A stretch of DNA of 64,000 nt from Tubiluchus corallicola (taxonomy: Eukaryota; Animalia; Priapulida). Below the pieces are notes generated by a model. The model saw only the letters and a program-made list of their open reading frames with translations. It made no database searches and had not been told where the DNA came from. The stretch lies in assembly GCA_030141605.1 (NCBI GenBank), contig JAQGDQ010000017.1:682001-746000 (forward strand). Reading direction: 5' to 3'. A program made the translations under genes and the position numbers. Positions 7,717 through 47,149 of the stretch are shown here, in pieces; within the stretch, counting starts at the first letter, position 1; every line of letters begins with the position of its first letter.

Positions 7717-10700
7717 ACGTTGGAAGGGGGATGTGAGGGAAAATCAACGATCAACAATGAAATTGCTCAATGCATCAGAAGACTGCAAGCACATATTGTC
7801 ATCTATGGAAACTGCAAAGTGCCATGTTGATTCATTGTATGATGGAATTGATTTTGAGGCAAATATTTCCAGGTATGTTGCGTGCTTTCTAGGTGCGTAC
7901 ATGACTAACTTGGTGGGCTAAAAAGGTACTTGGTACAGGAATTTGAGGTAGCATTTTATCACTTTTTGTATATGGTATCTATATTTATATTGCTTATAAC
8001 TGGACATAGCGACTTTGTGACTTAGATCTTGCCAATACACTCATTTATCATACTAATTTTGTACTGTCAAGTATAGCTGCAATTGTTTGTTTGTATTTTG
8101 CTTTTTTAATGGATGGCTCCATGAGAATGCTTTTTCTCAGTTTAGTTTAGTTTTTATATACCCTTTTAGCACTGTGCTTACCATTTATCCAGTTAAGCTT
8201 GCAATGCACCTTTTAACAGTTCCATCGATTGATGATGATCGTAAAAAGGTCAAAGGTTAAATGTACCAGACAATGCATTTGTGTACACCTAACAGTATCT
8301 TGCAGCCCCTGCTATTTGTAATAGTAACAGTCTTAACAGCTAGCTAGAACCTTATATAGTTCATTTTCCCCAAGCAAGATCCTGCTAGTAAATCACTCTA
8401 CACACAGAATAATGCATAATTAAGTTACAACCATGTAAAACAATTGATGTTACTGCACTGATGATGCAGACGGCTTTGGTTTACCCACATGTCACGTGAT
8501 GGTTGCAGTGAAGACACGTTGCTATGGTATACTTAACCCTTGACCTACAGCAACTTCGCTTGAGCACAACGAAACTGTAAAAAGGCTTACTACGTACTCC
8601 ATTAGTCTTTTGATAAGTTTGACATGGAAGTATTGCAGTATTATGAATGCAATACTGTTGCAAATTATTTAAATAAGGAATACATTTACAAAAATGAAAC
8701 AATGCTGTCAGTAAAAGATTATGGTTTCTTTAAAATTATATTTGATCTTGGGACCTTGGTTAAATTGGTTTGCTAGTTATTGTATGAAACACTATCAGAT
8801 GTTGAACATCAGCAAGTATATAATATATCTGCTCTTTTTTGCAGAGCAAGATTTGAAGGAATGTGCACTGCACTTTTTCAGCAAGTGACAGCGCCTATCT
8901 TGATGGTGCTGCAGAAGTCTGAACTAGCGGCAGAAGACATACGCAAAGTATGGTGTTGAATTCTAGACCTGACAGCTACTCTAATTTATTTATTAATCCG
9001 TTTATGTATAGTTCACGAAATCCAAGATTTAGTTGATAGTGTTTCTGATTTGTTGCTTTTGGTGAAAACATTGTGAAATCAGGTTTTTCAAAATTCAACT
9101 TTGAAAGATGAAAAAACTTCTGTAGTTTTCTCTCTCTCTCTCTCTCCCTCCTTCCTTCTGCATTTCCTCCCACTTTTTTTCGTGTAATTCCTTTTTTATT
9201 CCTTTATTCTTCTTAATACTTTTATCTTGAATTTTTATCGTTTAATATAATTTATGCGCACCAAACTACAAATTTCATCTTCTTTTAAGTTTACTGGATG
9301 AATGTCAAAGTTCACTTTCGTTTTTGTGAATTGTAATCATAAGGAAACTGTCAACTCTGGCTAGGTACTTGCTATGTCACCTGTGTAGGTAATTTTAAAC
9401 ATAGAAAATTAACAACTTGGAATGTCTTTGAGGAAAGAAAGAATCTGGTAGACTAAAGGATATATTGTTACGATTAACTTAGCTAAACTTGCTATGTTCC
9501 GATTATTACTAGTATGGCAAATGCGCAGCACGATCTTCATGTTGTTCAAATTTTTCGCATATTACAATAAGAAAAGAATGATTTTCTAAGCCATCGACCT
9601 TTATGTCACGTGTACTTGTCCAGACAGCATTTTGCAGTTCTGAAAGCAGATAACTGTAAAAAAATTACTGTCTCCCAACAGGTGGTGCTGGTGGGTGGCT
9701 CATCCCGCATTCCAAAGCTCCAGTCTCTCATTAGTGAGATGTTTATAGATTCTGTAATTCTAAACAGTATACCTGGGGACGAGGTTATTGCCATTGGTGC
9801 TGCCACAGAAGCCTCTCTTCTGACAGGCAAGGATTCTGGTGATGTGGAGCATCCAGATACTGAAATTCCCTGCTGCAGCAAATCGATTATCGTGAAGGTA
9901 ATCTCCATTTTTCTGTTTTCTACAGGGTGTTTCAGAAAAAACAGTGCAGTAATTATTCTTATTAAATCACTTAGAAACATTGTTAATCCAAGACTTAAAA
10001 AAATACGTTTCGTATGCTCAGTCTGGTGACCAATTTTTACCTGTTCACGTGATAGAGGAGACCTTGTGCTGACTGCACTAATTTTCAGGTGGGCCTTGTA
10101 GGTGGTACGGGCCCATACATACACACCCCAAAAGCCCTTGTAACACAAATCTTGCGCATGGCAAGCAAGAGGCTATTCAATGTTGCATCCATGTTAGACA
10201 TTGAACATTTACTTTGTCTAGTGTTGTTCTACAGGTCACTTGTGGTCACTTGCTTAGTAGTAGAAAAAAATGAATGACCCACAATGGCATACTGCTCAAA
10301 AAGCTATCCCATCTCTGAATAGCCCAAAACATGTTTATTGAGACCTTGTTTATTTTTCCTAGACTACTTTTCTTACTGTAAGTTTTTATCTATACAGTGT
10401 ACTATTCTTGACATTGCTGTATAAAATTCCAGTATCAGTGGCTACTCAGAGTGGGGAAGTAGATGAGTACGGTGCATTTTGTGAAGCGACTCCCAAAAAG
10501 ACATGCTTGTGTAAATGTACTTATGCTCAAATTAATGTTTTTTATTTTCATTACACTCCAACATTACACAACTTACTCACAATAGTGCAATCTAGATAAT
10601 CACAGTGATTATTATAATAGTACAGTTCATCATTTTTGTTGGGCAATTATGGCCCATTACCATTAGTCACAGAGTGTTCCCCCTCCCGTTCAACTATAAC

Positions 10701-13700
10701 CAAAAATATATTAATATCAGACATATTGAATGTTAAGTCATATAGTAAGGGATTATACTACAATAACTATTGGAAGTGTTCGCCATTAACTTGCAGATAC
10801 AAATGGGAGCAATTTGTTATGAAAATACTCTCAAGTTCATCGAGTTGGATGTTTTGGATAATTTTGGAATAGAGTTGCTATTTTGTCCAAAATGAAGCCA
10901 ACTCCTGCAGTATGACATCATAATGATGTAAAAATAGCTATACAGTAGGCGCCACTTAACAGACTCACTTAGGGATTGACGTGTTTTGACCCAGTTAACC
11001 GAATGAGCCTTTTAACCGACGGGTGTAGTATTACAGGTATAGAAGTATGAGTCATCTCCTTACTATGCACTGCAAAGGTTTTTAATGACTTTTAGAAATG
11101 GAGTAATTCCTTTGTGCAGTTAAAAATTAGAAAAAATATTTTAAAATATTAACTTATATAAGTGAATTAGCAATAGATTAAAAAGTGTACTTTTCTAAAT
11201 CACAGACTTTTCTAAGTCTGTTTATTTGCAAAAATTACAAATATTCCTTCAAAGTCGGTTGCTTCATTTTCTCACGAAAAAGTTGGCCCACAAAGTTCTC
11301 GTAATTATAAAAATGTTGAAAATCTGTTGTTGTGCGTGACTAAAACAGTTCTGAATCATCTGCTCACTTACATTGCTGTATGATGTTTAGTCTTGTAAGT
11401 CACAAGGAATACCGCTTATCAAGTGTTTAAATGTTCAGCTTCCAGAAATTCTTTGGGTAACAGTGGGCATTAGCGCATGGTAAACGTACCTGTTTGCAAA
11501 CAAAACAATACTTAACATGATTGTTTCTGTATACATAGTGCACAAAAGGGAAGTAAAGATGTGATAAAAGTAGAAAAGACTCTTTGGGCACATACAAATA
11601 TCTTATTTTAAGCAGGTGAAGGAGAAATATTGAGTCAATTAAGTGGAGTTATTTGGGTCAATTACCGATAGTTTTTATGTTCATTTGATTATAAGCGGCG
11701 CGTTCCAGGCGTTTTTGAGTCATTTAAGCGATTGAGTCTATTAAGTGGCGCCTACTGTATTTGCATAATTTTGTTTTCTACCGTATAACCTGCAATACAT
11801 GTAATTTATCACATTTCTTCTTGAACATCCCGTACTTTTGTTAATATGATTTATGTTGCCAAATCTAGCCTGCTTGCTGTCCAGATTTCCTGTTCAGTGG
11901 TCAGACATGTCTGTCCAGCTTAAATGCTTATAGGATAACCCAGTTTTGTTATTATGTTTCGTGTTTATAGGCTAAACACGAAAATGGTCTTGTCGTGTCG
12001 AAGACGGTAATCCCGGAACAAACACCTATTCCCGTACGTAGGCAGCAAAAATTTATCCTTGAGCCTGAGGAGACATCCTTACAGTTTGAGATTTTGGAGG
12101 GAGATGAAACGGAAGGCGAAGATTCTTCACAAGTGTTATTAGCCAAGGTAAACATGTTGAACAAATACATAAACAATGAAAACTCAACACAGCATGTTTG
12201 TATTATAAATCTTTCTTTTACACATGTAAGTCTTACACATATATATACATGTGCGTGCGAGCGTGTGTATGCATATCTATATGTGTGTGCATTGTTTCTA
12301 TGTATATGTATATATGTATATGTATATATATATGTATATATATACATATACATACAAACACGCATGCACAATATATACAAACATACACACACACACTATA
12401 TATACATATTACATTCCTGTAATATGATTCATCTTATAATGAAATTCTTGGTAAGTCTTATGATTTTATCATGTCCCTGCCAAGGTTATAATAAAACCTA
12501 TGTAATCACTTATGGTTAATATGAAACTTGTTACTACGAAACCCTATCTTTCACTATGAAGATATCTGTACAGTTGAATCCCGGTAATATGATTTTTGTC
12601 AGACCCAGATATATTTCCGTATTCAGCAAGTTTCGTACTATCCTATATGTACATTTCTATTAACTCCTAATGTTATTTCAAACATAAAATAACAATTATA
12701 TGAAGCCTGTTGCCTGTAGTTTATAATTGTTCATGTTTTACTCAGTGAAAGTAATTTAAGTTTGTTTAACCCACATTTCCCACAAGCACAAATTACAAAC
12801 AATTATATATTGTCAGTCAGCCTAATGCAGTAAAAACAAGCCTGCAAGCAAGATGGTTAGTGGTGCCAGAGAGTCTGCGGTATGTGACTTTTTGCTGCTT
12901 TAGTATTACATGTGTAATTGGATACCTGTAAGCAGTGTGCAATAACAAACACAAGTGATTTAAACTACATAATGGCAAATTACTATCAGAGTAGGAAGTC
13001 GAAGTCTTTCCTGGAATTAATGATTTGGCTGGTGGCATTTAAAATCTAAACAGTTGGCTGAGTAAATCAACAGTAGGCCTAGCAATTATACTATGCATAC
13101 ATGCATTGCACTACGTGGTGTAATGAGTTGTAAAAACGATCAGCTAAGCTATGGTCACCGTTAGCAACAGGTGAAGAGTGTCTAGATGAAACGGGCGACA
13201 GCAGAAATTGCATTACGAGTGGTTTTTTTATGTGGAACTCGTATTAGCAGGACTTTGAGAAATCATCCTACAAATGGGTTTTCGTAGTAATGAGTTTCGT
13301 ATTAACCATAAGTGACTACATAGGTTTTATTATGATCATGGCAGGGACATAATAAAATCATCGTACTACTGAGAGTTTCATTTTAAGCCAAATCGTGTTA
13401 TCAGAATTCGACTGTAATATTATGAAAAATAAATTTTTCATTTTATTTCTGCTGTGTTGAACTATTCTGTTCCTTGAAATAGTAGCACTGAATGTAATCT
13501 ACAATGGTAGAAGCAAGCCTGAGAGGTGCTTGAATAGGATATGTGGCTGCATCCATAACTGCTGGTAACATTTGTCTGGGAATAAGATGCCCTCTGTCTT
13601 GAACAAGAAACACACCTAGACAACATCTCAGCGCAAAAATCTCACAATTATTATCCTTAACATGATAATTCCCGTAATTTTCTGTATAACTTCCGCCTTC

Positions 13701-16700
13701 AAAAAAGTCCCACGCTCGTTTTACAGTGACTGATGGGTCATCTTTTTCATGGATACAACAGGTTCCCGAAAGTTTTACTGCAGCATCGAACGATGAGCAT
13801 CCATACTGGTACCTTTTTATAGTGCCACCTTGAAGGAACTCATCCAGTGTACTAAGTGTTACGCCGGCTGTCGCTTTCGATAGCTTGTAATTGGCAAATA
13901 TTGAATAATTTGATTCTTTGCTACCCGAGACTGTAGTAGATCCAGTAGAGTTGCAGCTTCCACTATTACTAGATCCTGAAATGGAAAATCCAGTGCCCTC
14001 CGCAGGTCCTGTGAAATGTATGACTAAATCGTTGCCAACGTAGATGCCATGGTGGGCATAAATTACATGCCTCCATACGTATATATGATCTCCAGGTTCT
14101 AGCTCATCCCTAGAAAATTGGCATAACTAATTAAGCTATATTGATAATTACAGATTTAGTAATTAATTATGTGGAAGAAAACTGATACATAAAGTATCAT
14201 AATATTTTCCTGAATTAGCTGGCAACTAACGACATCATTACAATTTTAATTAATTTTTATAATCTTATTGTCAAGATTATTATTAATGATCTTACTAACT
14301 TTCAATTATTTAAATTTTGATACTAAACTTAAAAGACAGAAAATTTAAAAAAAGTGGGATGCAGCCCATTGGTTGGCTAGCTAGTGGCATGAACTTTAAA
14401 GGAATACAGGATGATTTCTCATATACTATCCCATTTTCAAGTCCAATAAAAAGTATGCATTCTAACACAATTAATACGGCAAAAGTGTTTCTGATAATTA
14501 AATAATTGACTAATACCTTAATTAACAGCAGGCGAGCCCAAATATTCATGACATCACAAACTAACATAATTTTCAATAGCACAAATATTCTACAGGCGTG
14601 TTGCATGTGTTTGTGAAAGCGAAAATTGAAGTACATTGTTACTGTAAGATATTCAGTGTGTTGTACTAAAACTAGGCAAGTTTTAAGATAACAATTCAAA
14701 TTTCAAATTTACCGCTGTGCTCGTACATGAGCTGTCAAACGTGCGTAGTTCGTCAGAAACTAACGCATCTGTTACTGATATGTACAGCGCCTGTTTTTGT
14801 CTAATGCATTTCCGAAATGCAGGCGCTAGAGCCCGGGGAAATGCATGTAACAGCGAGGAACTAGTGGCGCAAACGTGAAATTGTGTGTGTGCGCGCATGC
14901 GTGCGTGGTAATACTTCTTTCACATAAGTCATTTTTGAAAAAATAGCGTTCCATTTCAATATTTTAAACAGTAGATTATTTTCACCTACAGTTTAAGATT
15001 GGGACCGGTTTTGCTTTAAATGAACTTTAGACTGCCTAGTGGCATAAGGCATCTGTAATATCAGCTGAAGGTTACGCGTCCAAAACCCTGACAAGTGTCG
15101 CCAGTTTAGATGCTGTGATGCTGCAGCCCAGCTTCTTTACATTTCCTGTCTTTCAAGTTTGGCATGAAAATTTAATTAATTGTGAGTTTTTGTAACATCA
15201 TTAATAAAAAGTTAAAGTATCACATATTATCTGTATAAAGCACTGAGGCTCTTTTAGTTTTAATTAAAAATGAGATTTCGTATCACCTGTTTTAGTCTAG
15301 TTTATTTCAGGCTTACTAGCTATAATCATATGCATAGGACATATGAAAGAACAAGTTGACCACTCAGTATGTTGGCTTTATTTTACTGTTATCACTTAAA
15401 TTTAGAAAAATATAACAAAGAAATTTGCAAAAAATATTCTGTAAAGCATAAATCTAAAATATATTACACCCGAATAGAAATTTTCACGCATAGTGGTTGC
15501 CTCCATTCGTTTGAAAATTATGACGCAACTGGGGGAATTCGTGACTTTTCATAAGCGCATCGTGGCTTTCCGCTAGAGCGCGCGCTGCTCAAACTAATTC
15601 AAACTTCTGCAGCTTACCTAGTTCATGTAAAGAAGTAGGGGAACTCGCGACTTTTCATAAGTGTGTCGTGGCTTCTGTGAGAGCGCACGCTGTTCAAACT
15701 AATTCAAACTTCTGCAGCTTACTTAGTTCACGTAAAGAACTAGGGGAACTCGCGACTTTTCATAAACACGTCGTGGCTTTCTGTGAGAGCGCACGCTGTT
15801 CAAACTAATTCAAACTTCTGCAGCTTACTTAGTTCACGTAAAACTGTTACGCAATTAGCTATCTAATGTTTTTAATGTTTTTGTAAAAACTTATTATACT
15901 TTTGACGAAAATTCACAATGTGCTAGTTTTCTTCAAGACGAATGACGTCATTGGAAGAAGAATGAGCATTCAAAATCGGAGCGCGCAAACATGAAGTGAT
16001 CGCGACTGTAAAGTGATTTTACTAATTACACGAGGCACTTATTGCAGTTTTATTACTAAATCATTCTAACATTTTTTGGGAACATGGAAAAAATAAGTCT
16101 AACTTCCCAGAAGGCTTGGCCTTTCCTTTAACCTAATCTAGTTGAGTGCAGTCAAATCCTATCTAGTTTATTAGTGAGAAAATTGTTGAGATGCTTACCT
16201 TTCTATTGTATGAAACAGAGACATGACGAACTATTTTCTAACTGTGACACATAGCAGCATTTAGATTAACTTCAAAGCTGTTTAGCATTTCCTGAAATTT
16301 TTAATTGTGTAAGCAAATTGGTGTCAAAAATGATGTTTTCTTTTTACATGTACGATAAGTAGCTCTAAAAAACGATTTTTGACATCAAAGCACCTGTATT
16401 TGTCTTATTTTAGCTTTGCTTTTCAACGAGAGTTGAAATGAACGAGAGTTGGCAGGTCTCAGGTAGGGGAAGGATAACATGCTTTACAGTCCTCCTTCAT
16501 TAGCATTTAAACGCAGCGTTTAATCAAAACTCGAAATCATTTCAGTTTTTTTCTGCCAAAGCTAGTAATCACCACAAATAATAGTTCTCTGTGTTTTTGC
16601 TTGCTCGTATTTACAAGTTCTTGCACTCACTTGAAAAACACAGTTTATAACCTTAGAAAGCAGCATTAAAACAAAAGAGTATGCAACAGTTAACTTGCGT

Positions 16701-19700
16701 ATTTCACACTTTGAATTGCCAAATAGTTATTAAACACTACCAATTTGAGCTGCCTGGCACAATATCCTGCTTGTGCTATTTATAGTTTTTGTTGATATAA
16801 CTCTGAGCTTGAGTTTAACCTAGGTAATGATAATTCACTTTTGGTTTCGATTTTGCTTCTAAAGAACTTCCCCGTTTGAAAAGTTTGTTTAGTCTAAGGG
16901 GTGTGGGTAAACATTGCACCAGATAGGCAGACACGTTGAAAAGTTAATCTTCCCATATCTCCGCATGGCACGCCTTATATTTACGAATGTGCCAGAGTAT
17001 AACTTATGCTTTATTTTACAAAGAACATGTTTAACGTCTCAAAGTTCAAATGTTGCTCGGTATTTTAATTGTACTCTCTACCCTTACAAAGCTGTAGTAA
17101 GCAATACTTGATTCTACAGCGAGCAAAGAGGATCCCAGATAAATACAGTCAATAGTTGTGAATTTGACAGCCACCGTGTATTTTGATAATTTATTTTATA
17201 CGAGTTTGAAACATACCTTAACCTGTATGCCAAATATAAACTTTCTAGATTACCCCAAAGCTGAGAAATATTAGCAACAGACAGACGGTTAGGACCAATA
17301 TTTGTATAGTTGCCTAGTTTGTTCCAGCGACTATAATTAAATTGTAATTCATAGATGAAGTAAAGCAGAGATTTCTTTATTGCACTTTTTGTTTTTACAT
17401 TAAATTTTAACAAAAACAGGATAAGGATTTTGCTGATACATATATAGAAAATATGCGTCTATCTTTTATGAGTAGCACCGCTACCATTTGTCCTAGCTTA
17501 ATAAAGTTGACAAAAACTTTACCTTTGGCGAGGGGTGAATGGGTTTGAATTATTCTGTTTTTCTAGTCGTGTATTTATATTTCTGTCTTTTTACTCTGGT
17601 CTAACCTAGGTTGCCAGATTAGAAAATTAGAAATACTGGACTGAGAACACTCTTAAAATCTCTTTCTATATTACTATATTTATAAATTCATACAAGCCTA
17701 CACAATTAAATGGCGCTATTACACTTTCGCACCGCCTAGCTTTTTCTAGGTTATTACTCGTTTTTAGGCTCGTACGTCATCATTCTATTATTCTTACGTC
17801 ATCAGTGAATGTTTCCGTTAATCTAATTGTAATTTAATCATATATTTAGGTATAATTACCAATAATTACGCTGTATTCACAGTTCTACACCTATACAGGG
17901 CGTAGCGCCATCTTCATTGTGTGTGTAGTCACGTAACGAATTTCGTACTAGTTTATGCATTATCAGGGCCTAGCTTAAAAGCACGTGACACACTTTCATC
18001 TTCACCGCATTTACGAAATAAAGAAAAAAACTTTACTTTTTTTATAATCTAATAGTAATAATATACAGTAATAAATAAAATTAATGATAAATAACTGTAG
18101 TCGTCTAAAATAATTTCCTCGTATATGCCAGCTTGGGTCCCGTGGTTTCAACCCTAATAATCATAAATTATGCGAAGAAACAGCGCCCAATTAAACTAAT
18201 GTATTATATAAAAGTGGAGACAAGTTAAAAACATACAGCAATGATTTTAGTGGGTTATGAGGAAAACCAAAGTGAAATCATTTGAAAATATTTATTTAAT
18301 GCAGACAACAGAGAACTATTAGTATTATTTAATGCAGGCAATATAGATAACTAAAAGAAATTCTGAGAGAGAGATTTATGTATAAAAATATGTTTTTATT
18401 ACAAAATTTGAAAATGGACTAAATACGGGACATTTGAGTGTTCCTGAAAGGTCAGTATGGCACAGGGCGCAAAATTATCAAATATGGGACATGACCTGTG
18501 TATAAGGGACATCTGGGAACCCTAGTCTAGCCCCTTACATTGAGTTGCCATAGACCTTGTTTGGGCGTGCAGTGGTATGGTGAGTTGTTGAGGTGGTATG
18601 AAAAATGCTAAGCTCGGTGAATTATAGTATACAATGTGACAAATAAAAAGTAATGTATTCTCAATTTGATAACTCGTATTTTTTGCCATGCCTTTCCATC
18701 TTGGTGATTTATGTAAGAATCGTGTGTTTTTTGTGCCAGAGGTAAATTATACCGGAGATAATAAATGATTTGATTCTGATAGCAAGTCTCTGTTCCTTAT
18801 TTTGGTTGTCTAGGGTGCAATGAAGTCTTTGCCAACTGAAGCTACAGTTATTGCAATTTTTCACTTGAAAGGGTAAGTGGATAAATGTCAAATTGCTTGC
18901 AACTATTCATTCAGTTTCACTTTTCATTGTAAATGCCTAATTGCTTTGCTGCTTACTAGGAATTTTACGTGACTTTTATACATTTGTTTGCATTTGGCAA
19001 CTTTGTGTTCATTGGCAGCTCATAGCTAAAATTGCCAGTGGTACAGCTTCATAAAAATTTCAGCCATTGTTTTAATACTGCGTAAAAAGAAACAAACAAT
19101 TATGTAACTTGTAAATGTAATTTCCAACGGACAAATATACGAAAATTTATACGTAAACTTGATAAAATCTTAAACAAATATTGTTTGGTTACGAATAGCC
19201 CAAATTGTCACAGTTCAAGAACATGCCGGTACTTGACGTTTAAACACGTGACAACCAACTGACAACACACACTGCGTAAGTGACAGTACTCTTTAACCTA
19301 AAGTGGAGTGCCTTGCGCGCATGGCCGCATACGTACAACAGCCCAACACCACGTGGCTTGCGCTGTGAGTGCACTGTGCTGGGCTGTAAAGCAAACAGTA
19401 CTCTCCTCATGTGCTCTGGTTCCATACAAGTATAAAGAAAGAACTAAAGAAAAAGACTTACTCTATTGAATATTATCGATAATTCCACAGTACCTATACA
19501 TGGCCAGTTGTTAGTGTTCAGTTTTTTACACTTTGTGCAAAATCCTTAAAAGTGAAAGGTAATTAGGACTACACGAACTGCCACTGTTAGTGTTTTACAC
19601 TTTGTACAAAATCTTTAAAAGTAAAAAGGTAATTAGGACTACACGAACTGCCACTGTTAGTGTTTTACACTTTGTACTAAATCTTAGGGATCTTCTAAAA

Positions 19701-19879
19701 ATCTACTAAATCTTCTAAAAGAACTGTATTTAATCTTTTGCTTTAGGGATGGAACTCTGTTTGTTAGCTTCACAGAGAAGTCAAGCAATAAATCTTGCAG
19801 TTTCACAGTTGAAACCACAGAGAGCTTAGAAGTATTCAAAGAGGAGACAAATGGAGAAACTTTAGTCAGCGAAAGTTAA
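7717..19879 (+). CDS. HSPA14: Heat shock 70 kDa protein 14 (RAC subunit), 3' six coding exons
   Basis: Exons 7717-7872, 8845-8947, 9682-9897, 11971-12147, 18814-18872, 19747-19879, all GT-AG and phase-compatible. Peptides include DVRENQRSTMKLLNASEDCKHILSSMETAKCHVDSLYDGIDFEANISRARFE, VVLVGGSSRIPKLQ, LNSIPGDEVIAIGAATEA, TPIPVRRQ and VIAIFHLKGDGTLFVSF. The C-terminus is short with no EEVD, as in HSPA14. 5' exons were not found in the window. Confidence 0.9.
8205..8587 (+). mobile_element. Family D MITE
   Basis: Shares GGTCAAAGGTTAA, CAAGCAAGATCCTGCTAG and AATCACTCTACACACAGA; right TIR CTGTAAAAAGGCT. Confidence 0.68.
10943..11757. mobile_element. Tc1/mariner-pogo-like MITE (family E)
   Basis: TA|CAGTAGGCGCCACTTAA ... 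TTAAGTGGCGCCTACTG|TA. Related sequence at ~34910-35460 and a terminus at ~56160. Confidence 0.8.
12235..12410. repeat. Compound (TA)n/(TG)n/(CA)n microsatellite
   Basis: Dinucleotide runs just after the HSPA14 exon ending at 12147. Confidence 0.9.
12571..13414. mobile_element. Tc1/pogo-like MITE immediately downstream of the nested gene's stop codon
   Basis: TA|CAGTTGAATCC ... GAATTCGACTG|TA, with repeated TTCGTA(C/T)TA subterminal motifs. Confidence 0.65.
13443..16224 (-). CDS. LRAT/NC-domain (permuted NlpC/P60) acyltransferase/hydrolase-like protein, ~230 aa, nested antisense in an HSPA14 intron
   Basis: Exon 1 16224-16199 (ATG TCT CTG TTT CAT ACA ATA GAA AG|gtaagc) joins exon 2 14109-13443 (ttttctag|G GAT GAG...AAA TAA), which is open for 222 codons. 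Protein: MSLFHTIERDELEPGDHIYVWRHVIYAHHGIYVGNDLVIHFTGP...TLDEFLQGGTIKRYQYG...KLSGTCCIHEKDDPSVTVKRAW...YGNYHVKDNNCEIFALRCC... Confidence 0.88.
14396..15019 (+). mobile_element. Family A Kolobok-like MITE, near full length, inside the intron of the nested NC-domain gene
   Basis: TTAAAGGAATACAGG...CCGGTTTTGCTTTAA, with the shared internal block TGACATCACAAACTAACATAATTTTCAA. Confidence 0.78.
15531..15845. repeat. ~106-bp tandem repeat x3
   Basis: GGGGAACTCGCGACTTTTCATAAG...CAAACTAATTCAAACTTCTGCAGCTTAC units at ~15531, 15638 and 15742. Confidence 0.9.
17607..18524. mobile_element. hAT-like MITE
   Basis: Termini TAGGTTGCCAGAT / ATCTGGGAACCCTA; 8-bp TSD gtctaacc / gtctagcc (7/8 match). Confidence 0.7.
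19010..19509 (+). mobile_element. Family C hAT-like MITE
   Basis: Shared blocks AAATTGTCACAGTTCAAG and CACTGTGCTGGGCTGT; degenerate termini. Confidence 0.65.
19510..19685. repeat. 70-bp tandem repeat x~2.5
   Basis: AATTAGGACTACACGAACTGCCACTGTTAGTGTTTTACAC at 19561 and 19631. Confidence 0.85.
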
Positions 19880-23608: not shown

Positions 23609-26600
23609 TTACTCAACATAAGCTTCTGATTCGCTGTCTTCAACAATCACATCAAGTCTCCGATCATCATCATCATCCGTTTCCGACAACGAGTCCTCGC
23701 TGGACGAGTTGCCGTCATCATCACCGCTGGTGTGCTCCCGCCATGCTGCTGCTTCGGCCATGAGGTCCGGCTCAATGTCCTGCAGACAATAAGGCAGGTC
23801 ACAGCCGACATAAGCTCTGTGCTCGATGGCATAGGTCAACAAACTGCGCCAATAGGAGTCCTGAAAACAAACAGAAAGCCATGTAGACGGATTATTTTTT
23901 ACAAAAAAAAACACGCAAAGCTTGATAAAACTGCAGTATTTATGTAATAATTAATTTAAATTAGTCAATCATCAATCAAGTTTCTAGTTATCATAATTAT
24001 ACCACATGATTTCTTGTGTTATAATAACAGTCAGTCCGTGTAAATGTGCTAGAAAAGTGATGCTGCCATGCTAATGATTTGTGAGCAACGCTAACTACCT
24101 AATTACTTCTAATTTTTATGTAGTTAAGAGAATCCAGCAAGGTGTACTCATTATGTTGATGACTGTATTGTGGCAGAACTGGAATGTAGCTCATCAAGGA
24201 TAAGCTGATGAGATAAGACACGTATTGTATACAGTTTTTCTCAATGGCAGAAAATAGCAGGCCCATCAATACTCATGTGTGTGGGCGAGCACACTCCATG
24301 ACCACATTGCTCTTCTCCTCCCCTGTTGCCCTGAACATGATCTTTAACTTTATTTTCTAAAGCACTGTTGTTACAGTGTGCTGGCACTGTATCACAGAAT
24401 GACACAATGCTGACCCATTACAGTAATGTTTGCTGCTAGTAACAGTTATATAGTCTGCCATTTTCACTAGTCCTGTGTGCATTGGCTGTGATTCTGACAA
24501 CCCACTGGCATATGAACATCTGTTGCCTGTTTGATTAGCTAGCTTATTTATTTGCTTAGAAAGCACAGTTCATCCGTAACCTGGACAAGACTTGAGACGG
24601 TTAGGCTTTTTAACAATTGGTTAACCAGCTAACTGTTCCTGATGACGTCTTACATATAAGAAAATATCGAATACACATGACTTGCACGAGTAAGGGATGC
24701 AGTTCAAATATGGCAGCATCCTGGTAACGTATGCGAGTGAAATTTTTTTTGCAGTTTACCGTATAGATGCTTCTTAGGTAACAAGATTAATTGAAACAAT
24801 GTTGCAAATAGTACAATTTTGTCTAAACAGGAAATTGCTAACTGCATATGCCAAGTCAGAAAAGATTCAAGGTTTCATTAATATGGAAACATAGAAAACT
24901 TGGATAAGAAATGGTTAAATGGTTAACCTTCTCAGGCCTTAATTACCATACTTAATTAGACCCTAGAATACCTCAGTACCTTAAGAAATGCAAAGCTCGC
25001 ATTACCAGCTGTGTACACAAGATGTTTATTTAATGTTTATTCTATTTGTTCATTTAATATTTCTTCATTTTATTGATTTGTGCCATAGTTTTTTTAATGA
25101 TACCTGTATGAGAACATGAGGATTTCCAATGAAAATGAGAAGTGCTTTGGCTCTTGTTATGGTTACATTAAACCGCTTCCTGTTGCTCAAGAAGCCGAGG
25201 TTATGCTTTAAATCGAAGCCAACGTGCTGCTCGGTTGACCGCACCTGGAAAATAAGAAATGGTCAAGACACAGTCAACAGTCCGTTAAAATGGGGACTTT
25301 GCAGACCCTTGGGTGTTTTTCAGTGAAATTTGTTTGTAAAATGTCAATCAACCATACACATGAAGACAACAAGGACCCATGGACTGTTCTATGCAACAGC
25401 TTGTTTAACTTATAAATAAACACAAATCTGCCATGATGCATTACACAAGATGGCAAGTCACCGTTTCCCCATACTTGCTTTCAAATAGCTGCTTTCATTT
25501 TCGTATGCTATTGATCACACTTTCACTTTCATCAATGTTTACTAAGCAACATGGGAAATCTTTTGTGTAATGGTGGAAGCAGAAGGCTTTCGAGTAAATT
25601 GGACATTTACACATTATACACTGAAGCAATATTCTTTAGTAATTTTAGCTACATACAATGGATTTGGTGAAAGACCGAAAATTTTAAAGAAAATTGAGAG
25701 AAATTTATGAAGAAGAAAAATTACGGTTGATACGATGATGACTAGACGTTCTTGCCCTTGAAATTCTTCCACTGACCCGACCTTGACTTCGTCGAGTTCA
25801 AAGGTGTTCATCAGCAGACGTATCTTTTCTACCTGTAATGTGCATTTATGTTTACTTATTTTTTATATATATTATATTAATTCTTTTCTTTGTCTTTAAA
25901 ATGGTTCACTCATTATAATAAAATTGAGTAAGACTTAATCTTTATTGAAAATAACGAACAAAAGTTAGTTCCAATTTTCACTACTATGTATATAAAATCA
26001 ATATTTTTCTGATTGCAGTTGACTCTGAATGCAGTTTAGATTAAGTAACAAATTCATGTCTTTTGTTTTATTCTAGCTGCTGCTAGGCCTTGCTTACGAA
26101 AATTACATTTAGATTTAAATTACTTTATTTGCAATTAGCAAATTTTGCTTTTGCAAAAAGTTGTTATTTACTAGTATTATAAAAGGCATAATGGGATTCA
26201 AGGTTGCAGGAACCACATGACACAAAACTTATTTTTACATCTAGCTGAGATACCAAAGATAATTTAATCGAAATCATATTATAAATTCTATCACAATTAG
26301 TATGTTATGCAGTTTTGACATTTCTTTTGACGTGCTTAGAAAAGAACGTTCGTGCAAAGATTTCTGGCATGTATTTTTGGGATCCACACTTTGTAGGAAG
26401 AATGCGTATCTTGTATTTACTTTTAATAACATGTAAGTAAAAGAACAGTGCTTGTTCATGGTGTCAAACATTCAAAAACATTCAGTTATGACAAAAAATA
26501 CCTGTTTCCTATAGGGAGTAATGACGCCTATGTCATCAGCTTTAACAGGATGGGTGGGGCTGTGTAGAAGAGCCTTAAGATATTTTACGACTTGTACAAC

Positions 26601-29600
26601 TTCCACCGGATTGAACCACGATGGACTGTTGCCCTCTCTTAGATCTTGTCCCTGAAACAACATGGCTAGACTTGCAACACTGACTCACTTTCATGATTAG
26701 TTTACCAGTGCGATCAGAACAATGAATATAAAGGAAAATTACTAAACATCAAAGGATTAAACAATAGAGAACATAAAGCAAGCAAGAAACAGAAAGCACA
26801 TTACATTAAAAATTATTATGGAACACAGGTTTCAAAGTGTCTCAAAGTTAAAGTAACTAAGTTTTATTACCATAATCTTAGTGACACAAAGGCATGTAAA
26901 CAGTATAAACAATTTTAGTTTTTCAGTTAAGTATATGACAAACTGGTAAGCAATTTTGCTCTTTGGAGTTTAAATTTTCTGTTACAGATATGAATACAGC
27001 AGAGAAAGCCTTTGACATTGTATGAATATTATTGCATACCCTATGTGCTCGATAATGCTGTACCATTTGGGTACAACTGTATTCATATTTTCTCATTTAT
27101 AGCATAATCTTTAATCTTACATACGAGTAAAACACCAACACATAAGTAAAAACGCATATGTATCAAGTACTGAAAATAATTTTTATACTCAAAATTATAA
27201 TGGGGTCCGCTACTTCTATTTCTTAATTTGTGTGTTAGCGTTTACTTAATAATCCGTCCAACATAAATACGTGTGCTTGCATAGCAAAATCGTCCGTAAG
27301 TCGGTAATTAACCTTTTCTAGCTATCCACATATCCTGAATCTCCACTTCATAAGGATCATTTTGATATCAGGCTCTATGTTATCTCTAAGCTGAGATAAT
27401 CAATGTTGAAATTGAGGTGCACGCTATGATCTTGAGAAAACAATCAAAAACAAAATCTTGAGAAAAGCACTGTTAACACTGTTAGCCACTGTTTTTTTGT
27501 CGCGTTGCTACAGAACACTTAGCAATCGCACAAATGTTGGTTGGATTTTGCAAGAACACATGGAAGTTATGCTTAAATCCAGCAGATGGCACTTTCTGAT
27601 GAAGATCTGGGCTTGGCAACAGAAAAAACCCAAAGCAAAATGATTGCTTCCATTAGCTACTACCTGTGTTTGAAAATACAAGTTTTTTTACAATTGTGGT
27701 ATTAGTTTTTAGACTGAGAAGTGGGTACAGGATTATAAAATTAGATTTTTAATATTTTTGAACACTTCCCTAATAATTTGAAGCTAGAATATAAAAGTTC
27801 AATTTATTTAGTATTTGTTTGTACAAAAAACAAAAAATTGACATTTTACCAAATTTTTTGTGCATTCTACTTTGAAGCACCTTAACATACTTTTAATTAT
27901 ACTGACTTATGGACAATTTTGGTTTGCAAGCACACATATAATGTAGCACATATTGCTATAAATCAATACACATTAACCTTTCAATCAAATCACTTATCTC
28001 ACAGCTTACCCTAACACCATGGAAGCACATGGGAAAGCCCGTCTGATTTGGAAGAAGTGGCCAATCGCACAAGCTCTCCCTCATCTCCTTCTCCGCACAT
28101 GGCCTCAGCTCCGCACTGTAGAATGTGCGGGACGGTAAGTTAAGCAGTGCGGGATGGGATCGGTAGTTATTGACTAGCTTGGTGACCTGCAAAGTATGAC
28201 GATTATCATTATTTCAGAAGCAAACAATATAGCAAGCACCCAAGACATTAGCTGGCAACTTGTTCAAATCATAATTATCTCAGTATAATGGGTGTAAGCA
28301 CCATAATAAGCCTTTTCACAGTTTCTTGTGCAGACGCACAGTTGCTGCAGGTCAAAGGTTACGTGTGCCACAGCAATGCGTCTTAAGTACAATATCACGT
28401 GACGTGTGAAGCAAAGCCGTCTGCCGCATCAGTTCAGTAATGTCAGTTGTTTCACATGGACTTTACTTAATTATGCATTAGTCTATGCTATGTAGAGTAA
28501 TTCACTAGCAGGATCTTGCTTGGTAACAAGAACGAATGAACTAGGTAAGGTTCTAGATAGCTGTTAAAATTTTCAGTATTATAATAGCTTGGGCTGCAAG
28601 GTGTTGTGAAGTGAACACAAATGTGTTGTCTGGCAAGCTAAACCTCTGACCTTTTCATGTTCATCATTCATTCCTGGAACTGTGAAAAGGCTTATTGGCA
28701 AATTTGTTTAATTGCATAATTAATCAAAAACTTACCAGCAGTGGGTCATAAGCACCATGATCGGAAAATTTACTCTCGTCTCTACAGTAAAGTTTTCTAT
28801 CACACAATCGTTCCAGCAGTGAGAGTTCTAACCCCAAAGTCTTTGCATATCTTGACCTCAAAACTGGACCAAGCTGCATCGGATCACCTGCTAAAACAAC
28901 CTACAGAAAAACATAGAAAATCTTTAAGAAATAGTCTAGTTTAGCTTAACTTGGATTAGATCAGATTAAGCTAGATTAGATTAGATTAAAATAAGCTAAC
29001 AGAATTAGATTCACAAAAGAGAAGAATGATTGTTTGTGATTCCCTTCTCCACAAGAACAAATGTGACAATTTTTACAACAATGTTTTATATAACTGATTG
29101 CCAGTAAAGCTGCTCAAGCAAGTTAGGCGGGTATGGTCGTCGTTGAAAACAATCTTTAGTCACAGACAGAGGTGGCTCGACTATAGGTACTGTGGAACTG
29201 CAGCACTACCTATCTTCACTCAATATTATCAATAATATTCAATATAATAAGTCTTTCTTCTTTAGCTCTTTCTTTATACTTGTACGGAACAGAGCGCATG
29301 AGGATAGTACGTTTGCTTTAAAGCCTCGTGCAGTGGTGTATTCTGTTGTTGTGCGCATGCTGCCATGTGCACATGTCTGAGATAACACGTTGTATGCTGT
29401 ACGCTGCACTGCTAGGCAGAGAAAGGTATGTCACTCACACAGTTTGTTGTCAGATGTCACATGCTTAAAAACCTCACATAGTTTGTTGTCAGTTGTCACA
29501 TGCTTATTAAAACAATGGCTGAAAAGCAGCATCCGCACTAATTTTAACCACGGGCTGCTACTGATTATGAAAGCTCTAGTAAACAATGGCAATTATAATT

Positions 29601-32600
29601 CTGTACAAACGGATCACCTATCAACAAACTGCGTTAACAGAATTACGTTTCATGATCATTTCCAGTAAGTACAGCAAATTATAACGTTAATTAAATGCCA
29701 TTTTTCAATATGTCATCTGGACCTAAAAGAAGACGAAATTTCATTACTCTATATATTACAATGACTTGTTAAAGCTAACAATTATGTTTTGTACCTGGCC
29801 TCCAGACTGGGCCGCCATGCTGATAGGTATAAGGCACTCTGGTTCAGTAGCCTGTCCGGCTTCATCTACAAACACATGTGTAAAATGATCTCCGGGTAGG
29901 GAAAGCTTATACAGTAGTCCGCAGGTATTGCAAGTGCAAACGACAATTCTGTGATGAACAACCTCAAACAAGTCCTCTTCTTCACCTGGTTAAATAAAAA
30001 TTGTCAACCTCCGAAACGATTTTTTCATTCACCGTTGCTTTGAGATCAACACACTGGCGTTAATTTTACAAGAGTAAAGAAATGGAGATCTAACATTACT
30101 TGTTATTTTGGCCTATAGAGGGCACTAGGTATAATGATTTTGAAAGGTCTCACCTGTTGTACAAATAGTTTTGGTGCGAATTAAGTTGTCTAACTTTTGC
30201 GGCTTAATAAATAAATACCGCATAATTCTTTCAATCTTAATTAGCAGTTTATTAGCTCAAGATAAAAAATGGTTTGTCAACAATTAATACAAACTTTGCT
30301 TTGTTAACTTACGATCATTATAATTCAATTCAACTAGATAATTTTAAAATGAAAATTCATACACTCATGTTCTGCTACGTTGAACCAAAGTACTTTTCAG
30401 TATCTACTGTTATTGTTATTATTTGCATGTCTTCCTTCTAACATGCTTAATTTGATCTTGTTCAAGAATAAATCTATCGTCTTTGTCGGTTATCATTCCG
30501 TATGGTGATAATTTAAAAGCACGGGTGCTAATTAAAAAAGCAAATATCATTAGAATATGCAAAGCACTTTTTAGAAACTTAAAGCACACATGATAACAAT
30601 GCTTCCACATTCTTGTCAAAAGATGGTGTTATAGTACATATTATATCAATATTTATATTACTCGCCTTACTACTTACTTAAATTATTATTTAATAGATTA
30701 ATATTGATGTATTTTATGCATATAACAGTTTTTAAGCAAAGACTGTTAACATTCCTACACAAAGAACCTAAAACAATATTGACATCTACTGAGCAAGAGT
30801 TATTTTCGAAAAAATATAACTTCAACAACAATACTACGGACCTCTGCTACAGTAGGGCTGAATGCAGGCAGGATAACTGTCTGACGTCCGATAGAATGCA
30901 TTCAGCCTTGCCATGTCAGACACTTTGACTAGACCACTCTCGTGCAGGCGTTGTGCGATCAGATCCGCAGCGGAGTTGGATGGTGTGCAGGCGAGAATGC
31001 GACTGGACGGGAGACGGCGTAACACCTGCAGTATGGCTTCTACTACAGTAATTGTTTTCCCCGTACCTGGAAAATATAAAAAAATAAAATTAGAATTTCA
31101 TACTCACTTTAAAAACTTGAAGAATCACATCGCATTGAAAAATGAAAGATATACATAGGATGTCAATATTAATGAGAAGATGGTGAACATATATACTTCA
31201 CTGAGAATAGTCTCAACACTCACTTAAAGCTAAATATCACTAATATTCATTAGTAATTGCAATTAGTTTCACTTAAATGGCTTCGACTAGTATCCTTATT
31301 TATTATCGGAAATGTGTTAAAATCACTTTAGTAAGTCTGAGCAAATTTTTTAACCCAAGGCTTGTAAAGTGCATAAAAACGATAAGATGAAATATCTTGT
31401 ATAAAAAATCAAGACGTCAATTATTAAGAATAAAATATGAAAATAGAATAATTTAAACTGCGTACACACCAACCCACGCCAAGCTGACAGCATAGATGTT
31501 TAGCAGCAAAAAATGCCCATTTTTACATTTAATTTCAAAAATCAATTAAACTGCAAAGAAAAGTGTGACGTAGCGTAGCATTAGTGATCAGAACTGATAC
31601 AAAAATCGCGATACGATTTCGATAAACAATAAGGATTTGCGAAACGATTTCAATATAAACAGTAAGGATTTGCTATATATTTCGATAAACAATAAGAACT
31701 TGCTACACGATTTCGATAAGCGTTTTACAAAATTGTTCTACAAGTATTGTACACACTGTACTACACAGTGCAAACTGCGAAGTATCATTTTATGTAATTA
31801 ATGCTACTAGGTTTTGAAGTTAATATCATGATAATTTAAACTATTGTTCTCAATGTGTTTATTATTACTAGGGCATACACATTGACATCCACACTCCGAT
31901 TGTATCGATTTTCTGTAGTGATAATCATTTATTTTATCGAATCGATAATAGATAAAAAAAAATCTATTTTGTTTTGTATCGATTCAAAAATCGATAAAAA
32001 AATGGATTTTCTGCCGATAAGACAATAATTGATTCCCATCACGACGCAGTTTTAGTTACACCTTGCACAAACCACAAATTAAAACAAGAGATGTTTTAGT
32101 TAGCACACCTGGAGGGCCAAAAACAATGTAAGGCGTCGGCCGGCTCTGTCCCCCCAGGATCCGTATGACAGCAGCCTTCTGTCTAGAGTTGAGACAGTCG
32201 TTGAAGAACTCAAATCCTGGTTTTGTTCTAATCGCAGGTGACAATGACTTGCCGGAGCCGGACTTCAGTGACTGTTTCCGTGGCGTCGCAGCCAAGTACT
32301 GAGGTAATTGAACCTCCAACTGATTGGGAAATAATACTGAAACATAAATGAATATGTGAATTCTGTTTTTGTTTTACTGTGAGGAACACATTGTTGCACA
32401 TAATTCTTTGATAAACACTGTAACCCAATGTACTCCCGAGCTTTGTAATTTAACTGCTAATAATGCATTGACGCATCTCATGCAATCACGGCACATAACA
32501 TTTAAATGATAACTGCAAAAGTTGTTCGCACATGTCAGTGATATAACACGACATAATTGTGTATCTGTGACTTTGATCAGCCATGTTGTTAGCCATACAT

Positions 32601-45310: not shown

Positions 45311-47149
45311 CTGGTATTTGTTTTAGCTAGTTGCACAATTATTATGAGGAAGTTAAGAAGATCCACCGCGGCATTATACAATCCCTTCTGCATTTAATAA
45401 GTTTTCGCCTCAACTAACTAACTAATTAAGTAATTAATAATAATGATAATACCAATAAAAATAACAATAATAATAACAACAACATAATAATAAATATGTA
45501 ATTAATATTGTCATATTCTTATAGAGAAGTTCAGAGTAGGCTTCCCGACACCTGCATAGACATAGTCTGATAACTTTGCCAATTTGCTTAATTCTTATTA
45601 ATTTTGTTGAAATAATGGCATTCTTAGTTAGTTCTCGTATTCTATCCCTTAGTGCCAAAAATTTTGATATATATGTATGCGATATAACTTTGTCACGTTT
45701 GAAAAATATAACTTATATGTTCAAAAACGGCACATAGGATTATGGCAGGTGTTACATTAATGTACAATATACATCTTATTGCATTGGTTATTCAAAAATC
45801 ATGGAGATCAAGACACGCCAAAGGCTTTACTTTTATCAAAAAAGATACGCTATATCTGAACACCTCACTTATAATCGTGATTACTTACAGTATTAAACTT
45901 CCATAATTCTGTACATTCTGCATGATTTGCTTAGGAACAAAAACTACAATTAAGAAAATAAATTAACAGAGAATGCTTTTAAGAACACGACTCAGAGAGG
46001 AATATTCACCTTGGACACGTTTTGGCAATACATCTCTTAGTGGATTGAAGATTAAGCAACAGAATTCAGCTTGCAGATACAATATTAAATAACCATTAGC
46101 TGATAAAAGGCAGAAATACAAAAGTAATACAAAATGTTAATAAAAATTGTTTCTAAGCAATGATCTTGGGAGCACGTAATTTTTTACTACATTGAATTAA
46201 GGTTTACATCTGATACTGCACCATACTGGTTTGATCAACCGCCTCGTACTATAATTAATTTTAAAAAAATGATAAAGTCATTTTAGCTAGATGGACATTT
46301 GAATCTTTCACATATTTACGTTATCTTCAATTGGTATTTTTATTTCGTTTTTAATATTTTTTTATTTAATATTTTTTATTGGTTTTTTAATTTAATAAAT
46401 TTATTTTGTTTTATTTTTTAATTCATGTTTATGTATTAAATTTTTATTTTTTTATTTATGCAATAAAAATTCTATTTTTTTCTTATTTTTGGATTACAAT
46501 ATGATTCACTACGTATTCCCATATATAATAATTACTTACTCCGTAATTGCGCCTGATTGCGGCCAATCCCCATTTCTACAATTAAACATTTCCTCAATAG
46601 AGGACGCCACAGTAATTGCGATAGTCAATTTCCGCACAATGTAAAGTATTTCCGGATTTATTCTTGGAGGCTCGATTTGGTAAATACATTTTGGTCACAA
46701 ATTAATACTTTGCATTTGTTTATTTTTACCTGTTATAGCTGATTTCAGAAATTCGCCATATTTTAGTTTGCCGAACAGAACGCATCATTATTATTATGAT
46801 TAAATTTAATAATCGTATTACAATAGGACTTACAGGTGCCTGCTCTGTAGGTAGATGATCACTTTCTGGAACCATCTGTTCTCAGATTGTCACTGTATTG
46901 ATCTTGAAAGATAGCATTTTCAGACTTGCCATATCTCACGTAGACCTGTCCCTCTTAAGAGATGCATTTTAGCTGTTGCAGCACTTACCAGCTTGCTAAT
47001 TAATAACCCCATTATTATATTATGGCATTAATTCTTTATTTTCCTAGGAATTTTAAATGCTGTAACATGTTTTTTTGATCAACAGATTGCATTTTGGCAA
47101 TATTTCAAGATAACTTGTAGAGTAACAATGCTGTCACTTTTTAGGTACA

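What the first reader, a model, noticed from the sequence alone, without database searches (positions are those of the whole stretch)
13443..16224. Hidden intact LRAT/NC-domain gene nested antisense in an HSPA14 intron
Seen: a 26-nt ATG exon (16224-16199, strong gtaagc donor) splices in phase to a 667-nt stop-free exon (14109-13443). The ORF track misses it because the start codon is in a micro-exon. It lies wholly in the intron between HSPA14 exons 11971-12147 and 18814-18872, on the opposite strand. Established: HHGIYVG...VIHF...NNCE are the His-His-Cys catalytic motifs of circularly permuted NlpC/P60 LRAT-family enzymes (phospholipase A/acyltransferases). Inference: a functional, probably unannotated lipid-modifying enzyme gene.
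Basis: partly seen in the sequence, partly recalled or inferred. Interest (0 to 1): 0.85.

Follow-up and report, generated by a model that had tools for sequence, protein, structure and literature searches.

The report
Plant-type LRAT enzyme inside Hsp70 intron
An invertebrate animal carries an intact two-exon gene on the opposite strand inside an intron of an Hsp70-family gene; it encodes a 230-residue LRAT-family protein that likely cuts or transfers fatty-acid chains of membrane lipids, and it belongs to a little-studied branch shared with plants, sponges, acorn worms and ciliates, so the gene is real but its layout and family are ordinary.

Summary
A 26-nt ATG exon (16224-16199) joins in phase to a 667-nt exon (14109-13443) to give 230 aa. 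Pfam LRAT scores 65.9 bits (cut-off 24.3). His28, His40 and Cys164 are intact, and the predicted fold matches PLAAT4 best (Z 13.5). Homologues support the micro-exon: it ranks 1 of 229 candidate donors. The Hsp70 host continues past the gene, so the coding part is nested. The protein is not of the PLAAT/HRASLS type. It has HHGIY instead of HW, no transmembrane tail, and a 'GTC' insert. Its best named hits are plant PSE1/NC-domain proteins, but the same branch occurs in sponges, hemichordates and ciliates. The tree keeps it outside the plant clade, nesting in core plants is rejected (p 0.0017), and its intron is not at the plant position. Its sister group is unresolved. Most likely it is an old, patchily retained lipid acyl-hydrolase/transferase; activity and transcription are inferred, not shown. 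Opposite-strand nesting is common in animals, and 'hidden' only reflects an ATG-based ORF track. New member of a known family; interest 0.25.

The parts
16199..16224 (-). Exon 1 coding part: ATG, 8 codons (MSLFHTIE) plus 2 nt; donor GTAAGC follows
   Evidence: best of 229 candidate donors against homologue N-termini; 6 of 9 residues identical to P0002
14110..16198 (-). 2089-nt phase-2 GT-AG intron, filled with dispersed repeats and a 3 x 106-nt tandem repeat (15527-15842)
   Evidence: very high summed contig depth over 14265-16370 at 85% likeness in run X1
13443..14109 (-). Exon 2: the whole LRAT (permuted NlpC/P60) domain, a Ser/Gly-rich low-confidence loop, the GTC insert, a C-terminal helix and the TAA stop
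14052..14054 (-). His28 codon, predicted general base (first His of HHGIY; aligns with the His of the PLAAT3 HW motif)
   Evidence: PLAAT3 triad Cys113-His23-His35 from PMC4624172 (passages)
14016..14018 (-). His40 codon, predicted third triad residue, 12 residues after His28 as in PLAAT3
13644..13646 (-). Cys164 codon, predicted nucleophile in NNCEIF; a second Cys lies 7 residues on, as described for LRAT
   Evidence: PMC3142127 (passages)
11971..12147 (+). Host Hsp70-family exon 5' of the nested gene (likely HSPA14, name recalled)
18814..18872 (+). Host exon 3' of the nested gene, closing the 6.7-kb host intron 12148-18813
   Evidence: rank 1 of 205 by a slim margin; no Pfam hit alone
19747..19879 (+). 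Last host exon with stop codon; aligns to the end of the Hsp70 substrate-binding beta domain
   Evidence: no relevant hit alone

Best explanation
This is an intact two-exon gene on the minus strand of an Hsp70-family intron, encoding a 230-residue LRAT-family protein that likely works as a soluble or loosely membrane-bound phospholipid acyl-hydrolase/acyltransferase and was likely inherited vertically from an old eukaryotic branch. Shown: gene anatomy, family, triad residues, a predicted PLAAT-like fold and the lack of a transmembrane tail. Inferred from PLAAT/LRAT chemistry: His28, held by His40, would activate Cys164; Cys164 would attack a phospholipid ester to form an acyl-thioester; water (phospholipase A1/2) or an amine or alcohol acceptor (acyl transfer) would release it. 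Inferred: it is transcribed from its own minus-strand promoter, and the nesting is a genomic accident with no functional link to the chaperone. The branch (HHG box plus a roughly 15-residue insert ending in G-T-C) is shared with plant PSE1/NC proteins, hemichordates, sponges and ciliates.
For: Pfam LRAT 65.9 bits. AF2 model pLDDT 78, pTM 0.73; the top 10 Foldseek hits are all PLAAT-family structures; VIA Z 13.5, rmsd 3.5, 110 aligned to PLAAT4. Constraint pattern against the closest relative P0002: 30 of 36 identical in the H-box and 69 of 84 in the core, but 22 of 45 in the loop. P0002 and P0003 are full-length proteins with matching N-termini. Named non-plant members: Saccoglossus and Glandiceps (3 proteins), Amphimedon and Halichondria (3), Tetrahymena (1). 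G-T-C is present in 3 of 3 of the window clade, 3 of 3 hemichordates, 2 of 2 ciliate-type and 20 of 22 named plant rows, and absent in 2 of 2 PLAAT-like rows. A profile built without the window clade scores the window protein 161 bits and the PLAAT-like repeats 39-46. The plant clade (99/97) excludes it; nesting among core plant rows is rejected, p-AU 0.0017. 30 plant-like genomic loci among 59 examined (many near-identical) break right after HHG and are continuous at the window's intron site. GC3 is 0.33 against 0.41 for the host exons.
Against: No activity has been shown for this branch in what I could read; PSE1's biochemistry is open (PMC4973742, PMC11231376, passages). The membrane anchor that PLAAT3 needs for activity (PMC4624172, passages) is absent: best 19-residue hydropathy is 1.08, and the C-terminal helix is not unusually amphipathic (196 of 2000 shuffles reach it). 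Vertical descent is not shown: the sister group is unresolved, and AU tests reject none of window+hemichordates (0.48), window+all plants (0.34), window+animals (0.27) or window+PLAAT-like (0.42). By pairwise score, plant proteins (97-117 bits) match as well as or better than hemichordate ones (84-99). In sponges the G-T-C is degenerate. Only two relatives besides one two-domain plant protein reach E 1e-30 among 1.84 billion representatives, and both are unnamed.
Confidence: 0.6

Rival explanations
1. The gene is real and catalytic, but its substrate is not a phospholipid ester. It would act as a protein deacylase, a lipid amidase or an isopeptidase, as other permuted NlpC/P60 families do.
For: No transmembrane tail. 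The GTC insert and long loop sit where PLAATs differ. Permuted relatives include lipid amidases (C92) and deSUMOylases (C97) (PMC10318531, passages), and these folds appear at Z 5.5-7.0. PSE1 is cytoplasmic (PMC4973742, passages).
Against: Sequence and fold both place it with LRAT/PLAAT (Z 13.5) well above C92 and C97. HRASLS5 lacks the tail and is still an N-acyltransferase (PMC4624172, passages).
Confidence: 0.2
2. The gene came horizontally from a non-animal eukaryote (not from within flowering plants), landed in the Hsp70 intron and later gained its own intron.
For: Best named hits are plants. Few close relatives. The sister P0003 is of unknown origin and lists the same 1792-nt contig length as P0158, which may mean two intron-poor paralogues side by side. 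Window+plants as sisters is not rejected (p 0.34). The coding domain lies in one exon.
Against: Hemichordate proteins share the M-x-L-F-H start and GTCC, and sponges hold many members, so patchy loss explains the pattern. Nesting in core plants is rejected. It lacks both the plant intron and the plant CxxC pairs. No close viral, plasmid or prokaryote relative was found.
Confidence: 0.15
3. It is a silent or recently dead copy, or a misassembled insert, and makes no protein in this animal.
For: No transcript evidence is in hand, and no promoter was identified.
Against: Intact frame, canonical splice sites, an intact triad, and a micro-exon 2 kb away that matches homologue N-termini across a repeat-filled intron. 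Identity to P0002 is concentrated in the core.
Confidence: 0.05

Closest known systems
Plant H-box/NC-domain proteins, e.g. Arabidopsis PSE1 (LEAD-SENSITIVE 1, At5g06370; PMC4973742, passages)
   Same: HHGIY box, GTC insert, NNCE-x-FA box; about 35-41% identity; best named database hits.
   Different: Outside the plant clade. No CxxC pairs in the loop, whereas 108 of 118 plant-type hits have two or more. Intron after codon 8 rather than after HHG; two coding exons rather than PSE1's three.
Uncharacterised hemichordate proteins (Saccoglossus LOC102803117 and LOC100367656; Glandiceps LOC144438841)
   Same: M-x-L-(F/L)-H start, GDHIYVW, HHG box, GTCC, NNCE; 34-35% identity.
   Different: Shorter (151-160 aa), without the Ser/Gly loop and the long C-terminal helix. 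Sister relation only weakly suggested (SH-aLRT 80 in the quick 87-row tree; absent in the careful 44-row tree).
Vertebrate PLAAT1-5 / HRASLS (PDB 7zot, 4dot, 4dpz)
   Same: Permuted NlpC/P60 fold and His-His-Cys spacing.
   Different: HHGIY instead of HW[AG][LIV]Y; NCEIFA instead of NCEHFV; extra insert; no C-terminal transmembrane span; only about 19 bits in sequence search.
Vertebrate LRAT
   Same: H-x-GIY context close to LRAT's HYGIY (PMC3184775, passages); second Cys at +7 (PMC3142127, passages).
   Different: HHGIY, not HYGIY; no hydrophobic tail. No LRAT sequence was compared directly.
Opposite-strand nested genes of animals (PMC12274878, passages)
   Same: Protein-coding gene in a host intron on the other strand.
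   Different: Nothing special shown; no call or listed paper showed this host-guest pair elsewhere (listing had no HSPA14 occurrence in its 20 rows).

Membership tests
LRAT-like family (Pfam PF04970, permuted NlpC/P60) | Score above the curated Pfam cut-off | tested here: met
   65.9 bits against 24.3
LRAT-like family (Pfam PF04970, permuted NlpC/P60) | Circular permutation: two His near the N-terminus, catalytic Cys near the C-terminus | tested here: met
   His28, His40, Cys164
LRAT-like family (Pfam PF04970, permuted NlpC/P60) | PLAAT-like fold | tested here: met
   Predicted model; Z 13.5, rmsd 3.5, 110 aligned to 7zot. Triad distances were not measured.
LRAT-like family (Pfam PF04970, permuted NlpC/P60) | Cys-dependent acyl hydrolysis or transfer | not testable with these tools
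   Needs an enzyme assay
PLAAT/HRASLS subfamily | HW[AG][LIV]Y context of the first His (PMC3184775) | tested here: not met
   HHGIY
PLAAT/HRASLS subfamily | NCEHFV motif (PMC4624172) | tested here: not met
   NCEIFA
PLAAT/HRASLS subfamily | C-terminal transmembrane span (PLAAT1-4) | tested here: not met
   Best 19-residue Kyte-Doolittle mean 1.08, and it lies at residue 167, not in the tail
PLAAT/HRASLS subfamily | Groups with PLAATs in a tree | tested here: inconclusive
   Not grouped in the best tree, but the clade is not rejected (p 0.42); only two long-branch repeats of one unnamed protein stood for PLAAT
LRAT proper | HYGIY context (PMC3184775) | tested here: not met
   HHGIY
FAM84/LRATD | NSE box in place of NCE (PMC3184775) | tested here: not met
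   NCE retained
Plant-type H-box/NC branch (PSE1-like; features defined here from my alignments) | HHG box plus insert ending in G-T-C | tested here: met
Plant PSE1 clade proper | Inside the plant clade; CxxC pairs; intron after HHG | tested here: not met
Opposite-strand nested gene | Whole transcript within one host intron | tested here: inconclusive
   Both coding exons lie within 12148-18813; transcript ends unknown, and a possible acceptor at 16242 hints at an upstream untranslated exon

The most novel reading that the evidence does not exclude
The gene marks a so far unnamed, deep eukaryotic subfamily of tail-less LRAT enzymes with their own substrate (plants, ciliates, sponges, hemichordates), and this animal lineage acquired its copy horizontally from a microbial eukaryote and domesticated it inside the HSPA14 intron with a newly gained ATG micro-exon.
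Probability: 0.15. Interest if true: 0.55.

Novelty: new member of a known kind. Interest (0 to 1): 0.25.

Why it matters
As a nested gene it matters little: the arrangement is common. Its value is as an animal handle on the plant-type NC branch of the LRAT family. The papers I read treat animal LRAT-like proteins as LRAT, HRASLS and FAM84 (PMC3184775, PMC10318531, passages) and leave the plant members without a known activity (PMC4973742, PMC11231376, passages). My searches listed no paper on this branch in animals; subscription papers and the 2003 NlpC/P60 survey were not available, so it may be described there. A tail-less, single-domain member would be an easy protein to assay, and its activity would bear on what PSE1 does in plants.

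Tried and rejected
Expression: no RNA holder listed, so no evidence either way. Runs X1 (kind unknown) and X2 (guessed RNA, next to none of the words) were laid as contigs; no joint at 16199/14109 was among the rows shown (15 of 158, 2 of 2). X1 has no cover over 13257-14162 (exon 2) or 12653-13105 at 97% likeness, with 20 of 30 bins covered, and no contig joins across the hole; the run holds only 0.27 of the words, so I draw nothing from it. No whole genome is held, so paralogues, synteny and dN/dS were not tested. Host taxon: a search with the S1-like exon found nothing. Recent plant-to-animal transfer was my first lead; I dropped it. Caveats on those trees: rows were hand-picked (87, then 44, from 378 proteins and 63 loci); long-branch rows L024, L004, P0266, P0274, P0275 and 38 others were left out of the second tree; only 133 columns; the sponge row P0215 was cut short by my motif rule (seen); the AU groups were named after the trees were seen; one search is a quick tree. 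Prokaryote, viral or plasmid donor: 3 distant loci from 61 pattern matches, 1 from 20, none from 9 and 5, none in plasmids; these are pattern-limited searches. The first exon-1 test was one residue out of register and is void; one search replaces it. A single viral Hsp70 did not single out host exon 18814-18872 (not in the top 8 of 111) and aligned only up to the exon before the nested gene; the 69-sequence profile did single it out. An amphipathic membrane helix is not supported. The atlas returned only LRAT clusters of mixed taxa. Earlier findings near this place, by sequence and by words: none. PMC151301 is not held. No supplements were read.
Full report
Observation. The minus strand reads ATG at 16224, eight codons and two bases, then GTAAGC. 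A 2089-nt GT-AG intron follows, then a 667-nt exon that ends in TAA at 13443. Joined in a script, the two give 230 residues with one stop. Such a stop-free frame is expected 0.003 times by chance in this window. The frame upstream of the acceptor is closed and has no ATG, so a separate first exon is needed. I scored all 229 stop-free phase-2 GT/GC donor candidates between 14110 and 18813 against the N-termini of five homologues. The micro-exon is therefore supported by independent sequences.

Nesting. The plus strand holds Hsp70-family exons (Pfam HSP70). Five exons from 8845 to 19879 have canonical edges and join without a stop. A single viral Hsp70 aligned only as far as exon 11971-12147 and could not pick the next exon. 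A profile of 69 Hsp70s aligned through both downstream exons, gained 11 bits from them, and ranked 18814-18872 first of 205 candidates, by 1.7 bits. So the host continues beyond the nested gene. The host ends right after the beta part of the substrate domain, which fits HSPA14 by my recall; no call returned that name. The ends of the nested transcript are unknown. AATAAA occurs at about 13447 and 13331, and a possible acceptor lies at 16242.

Family. Exon 2 matches Pfam LRAT at 65.9 bits, cut-off 24.3. The first His of HHGIY aligns with the catalytic His of PLAAT3. His28 and His40 are 12 apart, as His23 and His35 are in PLAAT3 (PMC4624172, passages), and Cys164 sits in NNCEIF. An AlphaFold2 model of exon 2 from an 87-row alignment has pLDDT 78 with a low-confidence Ser/Gly loop. 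Its top 10 Foldseek hits are PLAAT-family structures, and the best of 48,161 chains is PLAAT4 at Z 13.5, rmsd 3.5, 110 aligned. Against its closest relative P0002 (69% overall), identity is 30 of 36 in the H-box, 69 of 84 in the core and 22 of 45 in the loop, the pattern of a constrained protein.

Subfamily. It is not a PLAAT by the published signatures (PMC3184775 and PMC4624172, passages): HHGIY for HW[AG][LIV]Y, NCEIFA for NCEHFV, and no transmembrane tail. After two unnamed Logan proteins, the named rows among the 120 listed (of 215) are plant NC-domain/LEAD-SENSITIVE 1 proteins, and 10 of 10 top representatives that I looked up were plants. Lower in the list were non-plant sequences. Of 10 looked up, three had taxon names: Saccoglossus, Tetrahymena and Amphimedon. 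A profile search added Saccoglossus, Glandiceps, Halichondria and Amphimedon among 120 listed of 1122. These share an insert ending in G-T-C (degenerate in sponges) that PLAAT-like and short prokaryote-like rows lack.

Origin. In the careful 44-row tree the window protein, P0002 and P0003 form a clade (96/95), and the 17 plant-type rows form another (99/97) that excludes it; the sister is unresolved. The quick 87-row tree put it weakly with hemichordates. AU tests reject nesting among 11 core plant rows (p 0.0017) but not sisterhood with all plants (0.34), hemichordates (0.48), hemichordates plus sponges (0.27) or the PLAAT-like outgroup (0.42). These tests rest on 133 columns, hand-picked rows and groups named after the trees were seen. 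Gene structure also differs from plants: 30 plant-like loci of the 59 examined break right after HHG and run unbroken through the window's intron site. The window protein lacks the CxxC pairs found in 108 of 118 plant-type hits. Recent transfer from flowering plants is thus unlikely. An old branch with patchy retention is the simplest reading; transfer from another eukaryote is not excluded.

Mechanism. By the chemistry established for PLAAT and LRAT (PMC4624172, passages), His28 would deprotonate Cys164, which would form an acyl-thioester with a phospholipid chain and pass it to water or an acceptor. With no tail and no clear amphipathic helix, the protein is likely cytosolic or peripheral, like HRASLS5 and PSE1. 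This step is inference: I found no activity reported for the branch. I put a lipid acyl enzyme of vertical origin at 0.6, another substrate at 0.2, horizontal origin at 0.15 and a silent or artefactual copy at 0.05.

Novelty. Opposite-strand nesting is common (567 pairs in C. elegans; PMC12274878, passages). The gene was 'hidden' only from an ATG-based ORF track. Whether it is annotated cannot be checked; the window's own protein was not listed. Earlier notes on this genome describe an unidentified invertebrate, probably not an arthropod; I did not test that. Verdict: a real new member of PF04970, of a little-studied plant-type branch; interest 0.25. Papers were seen as passages (PMC4973742, PMC4624172, PMC10318531, PMC3184775, PMC3142127, PMC11231376, PMC12274878, PMC12994826, PMC10884005) or as search listings; no supplements were read.

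Noticed in passing
Proteins P0004-P0121; alignment: 108 of 118 plant-type hits carry two or more CxxC motifs between the second His and the NCE box; none of 10 non-plant members tested does. This could be a plant-specific metal site and a testable lead for PSE1's role in lead tolerance.
   Followed up: partly
PDB 8iuf chain E7: A subunit of the Euglena respiratory supercomplex matches the model at Z 10.9 (rmsd 4.3, 136 aligned), second only to PLAAT4. If chain E7 is NDUEG7 (inferred from the name), it may be a co-opted LRAT-fold protein; the main text of PMC10884005 has 0 occurrences of 'LRAT'.
   Followed up: partly
Proteins: Sponge-type members are very numerous, often with two tandem domains; the Amphimedon protein P0215 has Ser in place of the catalytic Cys and a long N-terminal extension.
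   Followed up: partly
P0003 and P0158: Both list a single Logan contig of 1792 nt, so they may be neighbouring intron-poor paralogues; their organism is unknown and matters for the origin question.
   Followed up: no
L010-L012, L014, L016-L020, L022, L023: Short, intronless metagenome ORFs with the same HHG and NNCE boxes but no GTC insert; the four in the careful tree group with the ciliate rows (94/79).
   Followed up: partly
window 15527-15842: Three copies of a 106-nt tandem repeat (90% matches) inside the nested gene's intron.
   Followed up: no
window 12460-12547 and 13274-13361: Two inverted copies (88 nt, 89%) of a dispersed repeat just downstream of the nested gene; one holds an AATAAA that could serve as its poly(A) signal.
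   Followed up: no
window 23609-40989, minus strand: Exons of a likely MOV10L1-type RNA helicase gene (Pfam S1-like at 40264-40989; name and helicase motif near 32100 recalled), convergent with the Hsp70 gene.
   Followed up: no
window 47126-47512, plus strand: Acidic first exon that resembles an Ariadne-type (ARIH2) E3 ligase by recall; no Pfam hit.
   Followed up: no
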